The translations under genes were made by a program, and so were the position numbers. Below, one piece after another: positions 14,239-57,608 of a stretch of 64,000 bases of DNA (positions are counted from its first letter, which is position 1; every line of letters begins with the position of its first letter). Location of the stretch: the NCBI GenBank assembly GCA_040391685.1, contig JBEBXJ010000004.1:1243-65242 (forward strand), written 5' to 3'. The notes below the pieces were generated by a model. That model saw only the letters and a program-made list of their open reading frames with translations. It was not told the origin of the DNA and did no database searches. Origin of the DNA: Paenimyroides baculatum (GTDB taxonomy: Bacteria > Bacteroidota > Bacteroidia > Flavobacteriales > Flavobacteriaceae).

Positions 14239-14252
14239 CATTATAAATTTTC

Positions 14253-14301
14253 GAGGAAAAATTTGACTGATTGCAACCTCTTTAAAAAAATGCTAAAGCA
14301 G
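14253..14301 (+). ncRNA. SAM-II/SAM-V-family riboswitch aptamer
   Basis: GAGG...AUUUGACUG AUUGCA A CCUC...UGCUAAAGCAG: P1 GAGG/CCUC, AUUUGA loop, GCA/UGC pseudoknot followed by UAAA, CUG/CAG; lies in the metK leader. Confidence 0.8.
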
Positions 14302-14361
14302 AAAAACTTCTTTAGTAAAAAGCGTGCAATTTAGTTTCCTCATTAAACATTAAACTAATTT

Positions 14362-55570: not shown

Positions 55571-56254
55571 ATGGAAACAGATGGTCTTTTGTTTGGCACC
55601 ACGGGTATTTCATTCATACTGTCAATTGCCTTACGCACATTAATAATGTTCCTTATCATTTTAATATTTTTAAGGGTATTGGGAAAGCGCGGTGTAAAGC
55701 AGTTATCGGTTTTTGAACTCGTAGTTATTTTAGGTTTAGGTTCGGCAGCTGGCGATCCAATGATTTATAAAGAAATTGGTCTTTTAAGTGCCTTTACTGC
55801 ATTTGCCATAATTGCAATTTGCTATAAGCTACTTACACTTTTGGTTTTTAAGTTTAAATGGATTGAATATCTTATTGAAGGAAAAGAAGTTTACATTATA
55901 AAAAAAGGAAAATTTGCTATTGATGAATTTAAAAAAGAAACATTAAGTAAAGATGAGTTTTTCATGGAATTAAGGCTTAGTGGGGTATTTCATTTGGGTC
56001 AGGTAGAATATGCCATTTTAGAAACAACTGGAGAAGTAAGCGTTTATTTTTATGAGAATGAACAAATAAAATATGGTTTGCCAATATTACCTGATTCATT
56101 AAAAAAAATTGTAAAAGTATTCAATGAAGATACATATTATTCGTGTACTTTTTGCGGTCAAACACTTATATACAATATTAAAAACAGCTTTGTATGCCCT
56201 AACTGTCATAAAACAGAATGGGTGAAAGCAAGCAACAGAAAAGTAACAAGATAG
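55571..56254 (+). CDS. DUF421 (YetF-like) membrane protein with C-terminal Cys cluster
   Basis: LRVLGKRGVKQLS.FE, GSAAGDPM, AILETTGEVS, CTFC...CPNC. Confidence 0.9.
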   Translation: METDGLLFGTTGISFILSIALRTLIMFLIILIFLRVLGKRGVKQLSVFELVVILGLGSAAGDPMIYKEIGLLSAFTAFAIIAICYKLLTLLVFKFKWIEYLIEGKEVYIIKKGKFAIDEFKKETLSKDEFFMELRLSGVFHLGQVEYAILETTGEVSVYFYENEQIKYGLPILPDSLKKIVKVFNEDTYYSCTFCGQTLIYNIKNSFVCPNCHKTEWVKASNRKVTR

Positions 56255-56388
56255 TTTAAATTATAAAAAATAGTTTATCTTAAACCAATTGTTTTGCGTA
56301 ATTTTAATTACAATTTAAAGTTTAGAACTGTAGTAAGGTAATTACAATCTTTCACTTAGAAAGTGCGTTCTCACCTTTAGTTCTTTTT

Positions 56389-56423
56389 GGTAATGCTTAT
56401 CTTTATGGTAGGCATTATCTTTT
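56389..56423 (+). terminator. Terminator hairpin downstream of the DUF421 gene
   Basis: GGTAATGCTTATC-TTTAT-GGTAGGCATTATC followed by TTTT. Confidence 0.65.
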
Positions 56424-56532
56424 AGCACATATAACAAACGGAGTTTTTATTTATTAAATGGTATTTTATGCAGTTTGCAGACATTTTATAGCGGATAAAG
56501 ACAGTAGTTAAAAAAAATGTTTTTATATTTGT

Positions 56533-56695
56533 GAACTCACCTTTTTGATTCGAAAAACTCCGTTACACAATGGCTTTTTGTCCTCCGCTAATGGGGTTTT
56601 TTACTCAAAAAGAATTAAAAGGTGAGATATTTAATTTGTGCGGAGGACTTTTTATTTCTTCAAAAAAGTCCTTAAATATCTCAGTAAGTTTTTAT
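56533..56695 (+). ncRNA. Candidate stand-alone structured small RNA
   Basis: TATATTTG box at 56524-56531, then several helices of 8-15 bp and a T-tract; no credible plus-strand gene follows. Confidence 0.6.
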
Positions 56696-56699
56696 TACA

Positions 56700-57608
56700 T
56701 TATTCTTTTACCTGAATACGCTGTTTTTTCATCTTATCAATTTTACCGGGGCTTCCAAAAACGTAAAACCATTTTTCCTTAAAACTTTTTGCTGATTTTA
56801 TGTCTTTCAGCATACTGTCGTATTCATGAAAATTCAAGTGCAGCGGGTTTAATTTATGATCGATCTTATGAGTAATTCCATAGGTTGGCTTCTCTTCTTC
56901 CAATTGATACGTTCCAAAAAATTTATCCCAAAAAATAAAGATGGCAGCAAAATTTTTATCGATGTATTTTTCGTCTGATCCATGATGAACCCTATGATTT
57001 GAAGGCGTAACAAACAGAATTTCGAAAATTCTGGGTAGTTTGCCAATGTACTCGGTATGCTGCCAAAACTGAAATAATACCGATATTTGGTTTACAATGA
57101 AAAATATTACAGGATGAAATCCTAAAAACGCTACCGGTAAAAAGAAAAGTATTTTAAAATGTTGTACCCAGCTTAATCTAAATGATACGGTTAAGTTATA
57201 ATTATCTGCACTATGGTGTATTACATGTGTTGCCCAAAAAAAACGGTTAAAATGCGAAACGCGGTGCGCCCAGTAACTACATAAATCGTAAATCAACAAG
57301 CACGGAAACAATGTCCACCAGTTTAATTCCATTCTCCACGGAATTACGTTATATATGTAAACCGCTCCTGAAATAAAAACAACTTTTAAAACCAGATTAA
57401 TTGCCACATTTCCCAACCCGACAAATAAAGACCCTAAGCTTTCTTTAGTATTATAATTTCTTTTTTCGGAATACCACGAATACCAAATTTCCAAGCCCGT
57501 AAAAAATGCCATTAAAGGAATCGCGTAAATAATTAAATCGCCAGATTGTTGTTCTAATTCTTTAATGTTTTCATATGAAATGGGTGATGCACCAAAAAAG
57601 TTACTCAT
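56700..57608 (-). CDS. Sterol desaturase/fatty acid hydroxylase family protein
   Basis: His boxes HRVSH, HVIHH, QFWQHT, HRVHH. Confidence 0.93.
   Translation of the reverse strand: MSNFFGASPISYENIKELEQQSGDLIIYAIPLMAFFTGLEIWYSWYSEKRNYNTKESLGSLFVGLGNVAINLVLKVVFISGAVYIYNVIPWRMELNWWTLFPCLLIYDLCSYWAHRVSHFNRFFWATHVIHHSADNYNLTVSFRLSWVQHFKILFFLPVAFLGFHPVIFFIVNQISVLFQFWQHTEYIGKLPRIFEILFVTPSNHRVHHGSDEKYIDKNFAAIFIFWDKFFGTYQLEEEKPTYGITHKIDHKLNPLHLNFHEYDSMLKDIKSAKSFKEKWFYVFGSPGKIDKMKKQRIQVKE

What the first reader, a model, noticed from the sequence alone, without database searches (positions are those of the whole stretch)
56524..56695. Orphan two-state structured RNA with its own promoter (best novel-system candidate)
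Seen: a perfect TATATTTG box, then about 160 nt dense in helices: CTCACCTTTTTGATTC (56536-51)/GAATTAAAAGGTGAG (56612-26); AAAAACTCCGTTA (56553-65)/TAATGGGGTTTTT (56589-601), with G-U pairs favouring the plus strand; loop GTCCTCCGC (56580-88)/GCGGAGGAC (56640-48); TGAGATATTTAA (56623-34)/TTAAATATCTCA (56672-83); GGACTTTTT (56645-53)/AAAAAGTCC (56663-71); alternate register CTTTTTGA (56541-48)/TCAAAAAG (56605-12). TGAG and GGAC are each shared by competing helices, so two folds or a kissing pseudoknot are encoded. The next gene is convergent, so there is no cis target. It resembles no tRNA, SRP, tmRNA or RNase P RNA that I recognise. Inference: an undescribed trans-acting or switching ncRNA (protein sponge, ribozyme or orphan ligand sensor).
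Basis: partly seen in the sequence, partly recalled or inferred. Interest (0 to 1): 0.8.

Follow-up and report, generated by a model that had tools for sequence, protein, structure and literature searches.

The report
Phage-derived small RNA kept by host
The flagged region encodes a real, roughly 120-nt structured small RNA with its own promoter and terminator, but it is not an orphan: it is a chromosomally fixed copy of an apparently uncatalogued RNA family carried by Mu-like (fF4-type) temperate phages of flavobacteria, where it lies antisense just upstream of the phage's DNA-modification gene.

Summary
Observation confirmed, interpretation partly right. The conserved unit is 56535-56656 (+), about 120 nt, not the 172 nt flagged.

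**Anatomy**
- A sigma-A -7 box, TATATTTG, sits at 56524-56531.
- Helix H1 pairs 56536-51 with 56612-26.
- Helix H2 pairs 56553-65 with 56589-601.
- Helix H3 pairs the apical loop of H2, GUCCUCCGC (56580-88), with GCGGAGGAC (56640-48), followed by a U run. H3 crosses H1 and H2, so it is a pseudoknot stem that also serves as the terminator stem.
- All three helices covary across 60+ homologs.
- The outer 3' hairpin (56623-34/56672-83 and 56645-53/56663-71) lies beyond the conservation boundary. It is lineage-specific and probably terminates the convergent fatty-acid hydroxylase gene.

**Family**
- There is no Rfam 15 hit.
- The RNA belongs to a family found in Flavobacterium phage fF4, 21 IMG/VR viral contigs and prophages of many Flavobacteriales.
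- One prophage copy lies in this same genome.
- The phage copies always sit between the last late gene and a Dam, Dcm or Mom DNA-modification gene, on the opposite strand.

**The window copy**
- It has no phage neighbours.
- It is syntenic in at least 8 Paenimyroides-type genomes.
- It is 87-97% identical across them, while flanking synonymous sites are saturated.

**Function (inferred)**
It is a base-pairing regulator, with antisense action on the phage DNA-modification-gene leader the leading idea. No expression data could be obtained. The scan had not found this RNA before on other DNA.

The parts
56524..56531 (+). Sigma-A -7 promoter box TATATTTG. The predicted transcription start is about 56535-56536.
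   Evidence: Read directly. It matches TAnnTTTG at -12 to -5 as mapped in Flavobacterium (PMC9723704). The box is invariant in 11 chromosomal copies and present at the same spacing in about 27 of 29 phage-type copies. The start site is predicted, not measured.
56535..56656 (+). Small RNA 'B', about 120 nt: the conserved transcription unit and a full-length match to the family covariance models.
   Evidence: R1 scores 150.7 bits and R2 102.5 bits, both covering model positions 1 to the end. The conservation boundary is seen. Indels break the 70-aa ORF frame.
56536..56551 (+). H1 5' arm (CUCACCUUUUUGAUUC), pairing with 56612-56626.
   Evidence: All 12 family pairs show changes on both sides, and 96.5% of cells are paired.
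56553..56565 (+). H2 5' arm (AAAAACUCCGUUA), pairing with 56589-56601.
   Evidence: All 13 pairs show changes on both sides. G-U pairs fit only the plus strand in the chromosomal clade.
56580..56588 (+). H3 5' arm (GUCCUCCGC), lying in the apical loop of H2.
   Evidence: It is invariant in the pattern-ascertained members. Members found by covariance model alone show compensatory variants: GUCCUUCAG/CUGAAGGAC, GUCCUCCAA/UUGGAGGAC and GUCCUCCAG/CUGGGGGAC.
56589..56601 (+). H2 3' arm (UAAUGGGGUUUUU).
56612..56626 (+). H1 3' arm (GAAUUAAAAGGUGAG).
56640..56653 (+). H3 3' arm (GCGGAGGAC) plus the U run: the intrinsic-terminator end of the RNA.
   Evidence: CGGAGGAC followed by a U run is present in all members. 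The H3 duplex is worth -13 to -17 kcal/mol. Termination here is inferred.
56623..56683 (.). Lineage-specific outer hairpin: TGAGATATTTAA/TTAAATATCTCA enclosing GGACTTTTT/AAAAAGTCC. It is probably the terminator region of the convergent gene and is not part of the conserved RNA.
   Evidence: Its 3' halves lie beyond the conservation boundary. The inner stem is kept, with a compensatory change (GGGCTTTT/AAAAGCTC), only in the closest syntenic relatives. It abuts the stop codon at 56700.
56324..56427 (+). Element 'A': a second small structured element that shares UCUCACCUUU with the 5' end of B and ends in a 13-bp terminator hairpin plus a U run.
   Evidence: It co-occurs with B only in the chromosomal loci. 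Its terminator covaries: A-U becomes G-C in L079. It folds with z -4.7. A 56369-56389 is complementary to B 56606-56627 (repeats I2 and I11). A possible promoter of its own is seen.
55571..56254 (+). Upstream gene: a YetF/DUF421 membrane protein.
   Evidence: Pfam PF04239, E 6.7e-19. It is syntenic in all chromosomal copies.
56700..57608 (-). Convergent downstream gene: a fatty-acid hydroxylase family protein.
   Evidence: Pfam PF04116, E 7.1e-26. Synteny is shown.

Best explanation
Window 56535-56656 (+) is the gene of a roughly 120-nt small RNA. It is transcribed from a sigma-A promoter (-7 box 56524-56531) and ended by an intrinsic terminator.

**Fold.** The RNA forms two stacked helices, H1 and H2. 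The apical loop of H2 (GUCCUCCGC) pairs with the 3' tail (GCGGAGGAC), which is followed by a U run. This third helix, H3, is therefore both a pseudoknot and the terminator stem.

**Family.** The RNA belongs to an uncatalogued family carried by fF4-type (Mu-like) temperate phages and prophages of Flavobacteriales. In those phages the gene sits between the last late gene and the terminal DNA-modification gene (Dam, Dcm or Mom), on the opposite strand. The RNA is therefore antisense to the transcript that reads into that gene.

**The window copy.** It has lost the phage context. It is fixed in the chromosome of a Paenimyroides-type clade and is under very strong purifying selection.

**Shown here:** the gene anatomy, the structure by covariation, family membership, the phage context and the purifying selection.

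**Inferred:** that the RNA acts by base pairing. In phage it would gate the DNA-modification gene in cis-antisense. The chromosomal copy would act in trans on such phage transcripts or on host mRNAs. I give roughly 0.35 to the antisense-gating function specifically.
For: **Promoter and terminator.** The promoter and terminator geometry is conserved across members.

**Covariation.**
- On 55 distinct members, 25 of 25 H1 and H2 pairs show changes on both sides.
- 95.6% of cells are paired, against 69% when shuffled; 0 of 500 shuffles reach this.
- H3 shows compensatory variants in members found by the covariance model alone.

**Strand.**
- Forward hits score 63-108 bits and reverse hits 36-56.
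- The chromosomal clade has 30 G-U pairs and 0 A-C pairs. Phage copies have 24 G-U and 20 A-C, which fits constraint on both strands in phage only.

**Phage context.**
- The RNA lies unannotated in phage fF4 (MN850656), next to a putative DNA methyltransferase about 1 kb from the genome end.
- The fF4 paper (PMC7761591) reports a Mu-like organisation with DNA-modification ORFs last.
- 21 viral contigs carry it.
- Among about 47 phage-type copies the upstream neighbour is always divergent: 29 D12 methyltransferases, 3 Mom, 2 C5 methylases and 6 ATPase-like proteins. The downstream neighbour is always convergent.
- The prophage copy in this genome follows tail sheath, tape measure, baseplate and endolysin genes, then the RNA, then Dam.

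**Selection on the orphan.**
- B is 87-97% identical across the clade, and its 3' 73 nt are 97-100% identical.
- Four-fold degenerate sites of the flanking genes are only 24-46% identical.

**Trans-pairing potential.** B can duplex with the prophage leader at -81 kcal/mol, against -40 +/- 5 for shuffled targets. This follows from homology.
Against: - No transcript was observed, so the 5' and 3' ends are predicted only.
- Most H3 invariance is an ascertainment effect, because many members were collected with a pattern that required both H3 arms. Covariation of H3 rests on about 8 members found without that pattern.
- The covariance-model-fitted alignment leans towards the model's structure.
- In phage copies the RNA's 5' end lies 20-55 nt upstream of the methyltransferase start codon. 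It would therefore not mask the start region directly, and the regulatory step is undefined.
- The loops and the 3' half are conserved far beyond what cis-antisense pairing needs. This suggests another partner, a protein or a trans target.
- A naive search for trans targets in the host found none.
- This genome carries both the orphan copy and a prophage copy, which does not fit simple exclusion of such phages.
Confidence: 0.7

Rival explanations
1. It is a 'moron'-type trans-acting small RNA. The phage carries it as a self-contained promoter-gene-terminator cassette that acts on host mRNAs, or on other phages, through its conserved single-stranded motifs: the CCUCC loop, GAAGAC and UAUUUAAUUU. 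Its position next to the DNA-modification gene would be only the usual cargo slot at the genome end. The chromosomal copy would keep this host-directed role.
For: - It has the cassette architecture and sits in the variable cargo position, with at least 4 unrelated upstream gene families.
- Its sequence is conserved far beyond what pairing needs.
- The orphan copy is maintained without any phage gene nearby.
Against: - No convincing complementary site was found near start codons in this genome. These were crude searches without annotation.
- The scarcity of G-U pairs in phage copies suggests the opposite strand is also constrained.
Confidence: 0.3
2. It is a protein-binding or sponge RNA. The invariant loop and 3' half would be a binding platform for a phage or host RNA-binding protein, such as an RRM-type Rbp or a ribosomal protein. 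The CCUCC and GGAGG elements would mimic the anti-Shine-Dalgarno/Shine-Dalgarno pairing of 16S rRNA.
For: - The 3' 73 nt are near-invariant while synonymous sites are saturated.
- The unpaired motifs are conserved across the whole family.
- CCUCC and GGAGG motifs are present, and about 18 of 29 phage copies carry a further CCUCC hairpin just after the terminator.
Against: - No protein partner is conserved in the neighbourhood.
- GGAGG and CCUCC are paired with each other in H3, which explains their conservation without invoking mimicry.
Confidence: 0.15
3. The functional element in phage is the minus-strand RNA: a structured 5' leader of the DNA-modification gene. The plus-strand features would be incidental, and the window copy would be a decaying relic.
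For: - In phage copies the element lies directly upstream, in the mRNA sense, of Dam, Dcm or Mom.
- G-U and A-C counts are balanced in phage copies.
Against: - A consensus -7 box at fixed spacing and a U run exist only on the plus strand.
- Forward covariance-model scores exceed reverse scores by about 45 bits.
- The window clade has no such gene, yet it is under strong purifying selection, with 30 G-U and 0 A-C pairs.
Confidence: 0.05
4. One reading: an orphan two-state switch, that is a ligand sensor or ribozyme, whose competing folds use TGAG and GGAC.
For: - The helices are dense and overlapping in this particular sequence.
- H3 crosses H1 and H2.
Against: - The competing outer hairpin is not conserved.
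- The alternate register is poorly kept.
- The fold with H3 alone is 6-24 kcal/mol worse than H1+H2.
- No copy has a downstream gene on the same strand.
- The RNA is not an orphan.
Confidence: 0.05

Closest known systems
Cis-antisense small RNAs of temperate phages with their own promoter and terminator (lambda OOP, P22 sar)
   Same: Both are short, phage-borne transcripts made from a constitutive-looking promoter. They end at an intrinsic terminator and run convergent to a phage operon, so they are complementary to its mRNA.
   Different: - OOP and sar overlap a coding region or a ribosome-binding site, whereas this RNA lies in the leader 20-55 nt upstream of the start codon.
- This RNA has a covarying three-helix pseudoknot.
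- There is no sequence relation, and the hosts belong to a different phylum (Bacteroidota).

The comparison rests on established knowledge and was not tested here.
P1/P7 c4 and P4 CI immunity RNAs (Rfam C4, RF01695)
   Same: Both are structured phage small RNAs whose loops pair with phage transcripts to control gene expression.
   Different: - There was no cmscan match at any threshold used.
- The c4 and CI RNAs are processed from longer transcripts and control immunity, whereas this RNA has its own promoter and sits at the opposite genome end from the fF4 repressor (PMC7761591).
Post-transcriptional control of the Mu mom gene by Com
   Same: In both cases the last, DNA-modifying gene of a Mu-like phage is preceded by a dedicated structured regulatory region. 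Three family members are associated with Mom itself.
   Different: - Mu uses a protein, Com, which binds an mRNA hairpin. Here the extra element is an oppositely transcribed small RNA.
- Regulation of the gene by this RNA is inferred, not shown.
Prophage-derived small RNAs retained by hosts (for example DicF of the Qin prophage, PMC5069750)
   Same: Both are small RNAs of phage origin that persist in the chromosome and are presumed to act in trans.
   Different: - DicF still lies in a defective prophage, whereas this copy lies among housekeeping genes.
- This copy is syntenic across at least 8 species.
Flavobacterial small RNAs and motifs (Rfp18; Rfam Flavo-1 RF01705, 6S-Flavo RF01685)
   Same: They share the host group, the TAnnTTTG promoter type and a terminator hairpin.
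   Different: There was no Rfam match at the RNA. The only Flavo-1 alignment scored 12.5 bits (gathering score 42), at another place and on the other strand.

Membership tests
fF4-type phage small-RNA family (defined here; models R1 and R2) | TAnnTTTG -7 box about 4 nt before the RNA 5' end | tested here: met
   TATATTTG lies at 56524-56531, 3-4 nt before ACUCAC.
fF4-type phage small-RNA family (defined here; models R1 and R2) | Helices H1 (5' UCUCAC... with ...GUGAGA) and H2 | tested here: met
   The window matches R2 over its full length at 102.5 bits. All H1 and H2 pairs are formed in the window copy.
fF4-type phage small-RNA family (defined here; models R1 and R2) | H2 apical loop GUCCUCCG pairing with 3' CGGAGGAC, followed by a U run | tested here: met
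   56580-88 pairs with 56640-48, followed by UUUUU.
fF4-type phage small-RNA family (defined here; models R1 and R2) | GAAGAC motif 5' of the loop arm | tested here: not met
   The window reads AAUGGC and related chromosomal copies read AAUGAC or GCCGAC. Only the GAC/GUC-type 3-bp mini-stem is kept.
fF4-type phage small-RNA family (defined here; models R1 and R2) | Location between the phage late genes and a divergent DNA-modification gene | tested here: not met
   The window neighbours are YetF (+) and a fatty-acid hydroxylase (-). The second copy in this genome, on contig C6, does meet the feature.
Any Rfam 15 family (including Flavo-1, 6S-Flavo and C4) | cmscan score at or above the gathering threshold | tested here: not met
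   There were no matches at the RNA in the window, in 12 diverse loci, in fF4 or in this genome's prophage copy.
Riboswitch or cis-regulatory leader | A regulated gene downstream on the same strand | tested here: not met
   The downstream neighbour is on the opposite strand in every copy examined.
MITE or REP-type dispersed repeat | Many dispersed copies per genome | tested here: not met
   This genome holds 1 BLAST copy and 2 covariance-model copies.
Small protein gene | A conserved reading frame | tested here: not met
   The ATG of the 70-aa ORF is not conserved, and 1-nt indels break the frame.

The most novel reading that the evidence does not exclude
A phage regulatory RNA has been captured by the host and kept for millions of years as an RNA-only anti-phage or phage-taming device. 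Made from the chromosome, it would pair through the family-invariant loop and tail with the late-operon or DNA-modification leader of incoming or resident fF4-type phages. This would shut down their Dam, Dcm or Mom anti-restriction modification. Element A next door, which carries an 18-21-nt complement of the H1 3' arm of B, would act as its partner or titrator.
Probability: 0.12. Interest if true: 0.85.

Novelty: new variant of a known kind. Interest (0 to 1): 0.62.

Why it matters
Regulatory RNAs of Bacteroidota and of their phages are poorly charted, and this phylum lacks Hfq and ProQ.

This finding offers three things:
- It defines a well-supported, covarying RNA family. About 12% of sampled Flavobacterium species genomes carry it, as do other Flavobacteriales genera, one isolated phage and viral contigs. 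It is absent from Rfam 15 and unannotated in the phage fF4 genome.
- Its fixed position opposite the terminal DNA-modification gene of Mu-like phages gives a testable handle on how these phages time anti-restriction modification.
- It provides a clean natural example of a phage small RNA becoming a conserved host gene.

The pseudoknot that doubles as a terminator stem is also unusual enough to interest RNA structure and termination researchers.

Tried and rejected
- **RNA-seq evidence.** The look-up of sequencing runs on the fF4 locus listed no RNA holder. Read laying on two 'metagenomic RNA-Seq' wastewater runs and two poly-A runs gave only probable DNA contigs and zero reads. This is no evidence either way on expression.
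- **BLAST among 40 relatives.** Nothing was found at first. Homologs appeared only after locating orthologs of the flanking gene and after wider genus sampling.
- **Alternate H1 register.** CTTTTTGA/TCAAAAAG is less conserved than the main register, so it was set aside.
- **Exclusive H3 state.** It is energetically disfavoured.
- **Coding potential of the 70-aa ORF (56570-56782).** Rejected: it has no Pfam match and its frame is broken in relatives.
- **Naive trans-target search.** GGAGGAC and AAGGTGAG sites in this genome show no enrichment at start codons.
- **Own sigma-A promoter for the methyltransferase.** None was seen by eye on the minus strand inside the RNA gene. This is not a formal test.
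- **Literature.** Searches found no description of this RNA.
- **GAAGAC/GUCCUC mini-hairpin.** Only a 3-bp GAC/GUC core is general, and I did not test it formally.

Full report
**1. Observation**

The intergenic region 56255-56699 lies between two genes:
- a YetF/DUF421 gene (55571-56254, +);
- a convergent fatty-acid hydroxylase gene (56700-57608, -).

The stretch folds far better than shuffled sequence on both strands: z -4.5 on the plus strand and -5.0 on the minus strand. Rfam 15 gives no hit, either at gathering thresholds or among matches up to E = 10. The element is not a dispersed repeat: BLAST finds one copy in this genome.

**2. Boundaries from close relatives**

The window comes from a MAG (82% complete) of the Paenimyroides part of GTDB Flavobacterium.

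I first located orthologs of the flanking hydroxylase. I then ran DNA searches. These recovered 11 copies from at least 8 species. Nine lie in the same YetF / hydroxylase / pepT context.

Alignment shows two separately conserved blocks divided by an unalignable spacer:
- **Block A**, about 56324-56427.
- **Block B**, which starts with AAAATGTTTTTATATTTG and stops right after GCGGAGGAC plus the T run, at about 56656.

Two consequences follow:
- That outer hairpin survives only in the closest syntenic genomes, once with a compensatory change. It abuts the stop codon of the convergent gene, so I read it as that gene's terminator region.

One-nucleotide indels and loss of the ATG rule out the 70-aa ORF.

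In these 11 copies H1, H2 and H3 are 95-99% paired, and every change is wobble-compatible. The alternate register is only 82% paired.

**3. A much larger family**

- A covariance model built from the 11 copies (R1) found a diverged second copy in this genome (contig C6) and one in another genus.
- A pattern built on the two H3 arms then retrieved 39 loci from species genomes. About 29 are in Bacteroidota: Flavobacterium including F. columnare and F. covae, Capnocytophaga, Chryseobacterium, Kaistella, Riemerella, Bergeyella, Empedobacter, Polaribacter, Aquimarina, Kordia and Flectobacillus.
- Those Bacteroidota loci are full-length model matches. The non-Bacteroidota pattern hits are not.
- The same pattern found 21 IMG/VR viral contigs.
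- BLAST found the RNA unannotated in Flavobacterium phage fF4.
- A second model (R2) separates forward hits (63-108 bits) from reverse-strand hits (36-56 bits).
- R2 finds the RNA in 18 of 150 sampled genomes of the genus and in 4 of 150 other genera of the family. In a phylum-wide sample it finds none of 140 genomes outside the family.
- Rfam has nothing at these loci.
- I found no description in the literature searched.

**4. Structure**

| Helix | Evidence |
|---|---|
| H1 | All 12 pairs show changes on both sides across 55 distinct sequences |
| H2 | All 13 pairs show changes on both sides |
| H3 | Invariant in the pattern-ascertained set; compensatory variants in members found by model alone |

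Overall, 95.6% of cells are paired, against 69% after shuffling and about 45% when partners are slid. None of 500 shuffles reaches the observed values.

Caveat: this alignment is fitted to the model.

H3 is invariant in the main set, but that set was ascertained with H3. Members found by the model alone show compensatory variants:
- GUCCUUCAG/CUGAAGGAC;
- GUCCUCCAA/UUGGAGGAC, in five genomes;
- GUCCUCCAG/CUGGGGGAC.

H3 is therefore a real helix. It crosses H1 and H2, so it is a pseudoknot, and it is always followed by a U run.

Forcing H3 in a nested fold costs 6-24 kcal/mol relative to H1+H2 in eight members. The H3 duplex itself is worth -13 to -17 kcal/mol. I therefore favour H1+H2+H3 together over a mutually exclusive switch. 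Steric feasibility was not modelled.

**5. Strand and promoter**

- About 27 of 29 phage-type copies carry TAnnTTTG about 4 nt before UCUCAC. This is the geometry mapped for sigma-A promoters in F. psychrophilum (PMC9723704).
- All copies end in CGGAGGAC plus U's.
- The chromosomal clade has 30 G-U and 0 A-C pairs. Phage copies have 24 G-U and 20 A-C among 1256 Watson-Crick pairs.
- This fits the view that both strands must fold in phage (a sense/antisense pair), while only the plus strand must fold in the orphan copies.
- These counts are not phylogenetically independent.

**6. Context**

In about 47 phage-type copies, both neighbours are on the opposite strand.

The upstream, divergent neighbour has its start codon 20-55 nt from the RNA 5' end. 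Its identity varies:

| Upstream neighbour | Copies |
|---|---|
| D12 N6-adenine methyltransferase | 29 |
| Mom-family protein | 3 |
| C5 cytosine methylase | 2 |
| ATPase-like phage protein, about 155 nt away | 6 |

The downstream, convergent neighbour is variable. Examples are an endolysin, a tail fibre protein and lipoproteins.

In this genome's contig C6 the order is tail sheath, tape measure, baseplate hub, minor tail protein, endolysin, a 189-aa ORF, the RNA on the opposite strand, then Dam.

The fF4 paper describes a Mu-like organisation in which one of the last ORFs is involved in DNA modification (PMC7761591). The RNA is thus antisense to the transcript that would read from the late genes into the gene at the mom position.

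**7. The window copy**

- It has no phage genes beside it.
- It is syntenic across the clade.
- It is 87-97% identical between species, and its 3' 73 nt are 97-100% identical.
- Four-fold degenerate sites of both flanking genes are only 24-46% identical.

That is strong purifying selection on a plus-strand RNA, so it is not a relic. Because it shares the family's invariant segments, it can form an extended duplex with the leader of the resident prophage: -81 kcal/mol against -40 +/- 5 for shuffles.

**8. Element A**

- It co-occurs with B only in these chromosomal loci.
- It has a covarying terminator.
- It may have its own promoter.
- It carries an 18-21-nt complement to the H1 3' arm of B.

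Whether A and B interact is untested.

**9. Mechanism**

- **Shown:** the gene anatomy, the fold, the family, the phage context and the selection.
- **Inferred:** the RNA acts by base pairing. In phage it would be a cis-antisense gate on the DNA-modification gene, a gene class known from Mu mom to need tight control.
- **For the orphan copy:** I consider trans action on such phage transcripts or on host mRNAs.
- **Evidence for other partners:** the conservation of loops and the 3' half exceeds what antisense pairing requires, so a protein partner or a trans target remains a serious rival.
- **Targets and expression:** crude target searches found nothing. No expression data could be obtained.

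**10. Verdict**

This is a real small RNA gene, apparently uncatalogued. It is a new variant within the known kind 'phage-encoded antisense or small regulatory RNA', with an unusual pseudoknotted terminator and a domesticated chromosomal copy.

The 'orphan', '160 nt' and 'two-state' parts of the interpretation do not.

Noticed in passing
window 56324-56427 (+): Element A is a second conserved small structured element. It forms a long hairpin followed by a 13-bp terminator. It shares UCUCACCUUU with the 5' end of B and carries an 18-21-nt complement (56369-56389) to B 56606-56627. It occurs only together with B in the chromosomal loci, and P. viscosum has two YetF-A-B modules.
   Followed up: partly
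G000 contig C6:42656-42774 (locus L083:1501-1619; L145/L146): A second, diverged copy of the RNA lies in the same genome, inside a myovirus-type prophage. The order is tail sheath, tape measure, baseplate and endolysin genes, then the RNA, then a Dam methyltransferase.
   Followed up: yes
phage-type loci, 0-25 nt after the sRNA terminator (e.g. L083:1620-1641, L094, L112): About 18 of 29 copies carry a short hairpin containing CCUCC (GGAGG on the mRNA strand) right after the U run, next to the stop codon of the convergent gene. This is far more often than base composition predicts, and its function is unknown.
   Followed up: no
window 14247-14306 (+): A SAM-II riboswitch match (RF01726, 72.5 bits against a gathering score of 44).
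   Followed up: no
window 56583-56602 (+): A terminator-like mini-hairpin, CTCCG-CTAA-TGGGG followed by six T's, sits inside B. It competes with H2 and H3 and is specific to the chromosomal clade, because the H2 sequence varies across the family.
   Followed up: no
L100:3455-3494 as laid in runs X1/X2: A 5.3-kb contig from a wastewater 'metagenomic RNA-Seq' run carries a sequence like the window's B RNA (loose end CTTTTTGAGTAAAAACCCCATTAGCGGAGG). It is probably DNA. It shows only that such organisms occur there.
   Followed up: no
L091:1245-1274: An L19-Flavobacteria ribosomal protein leader (RF03130) lies in a Polaribacter locus fetched for context.
   Followed up: no
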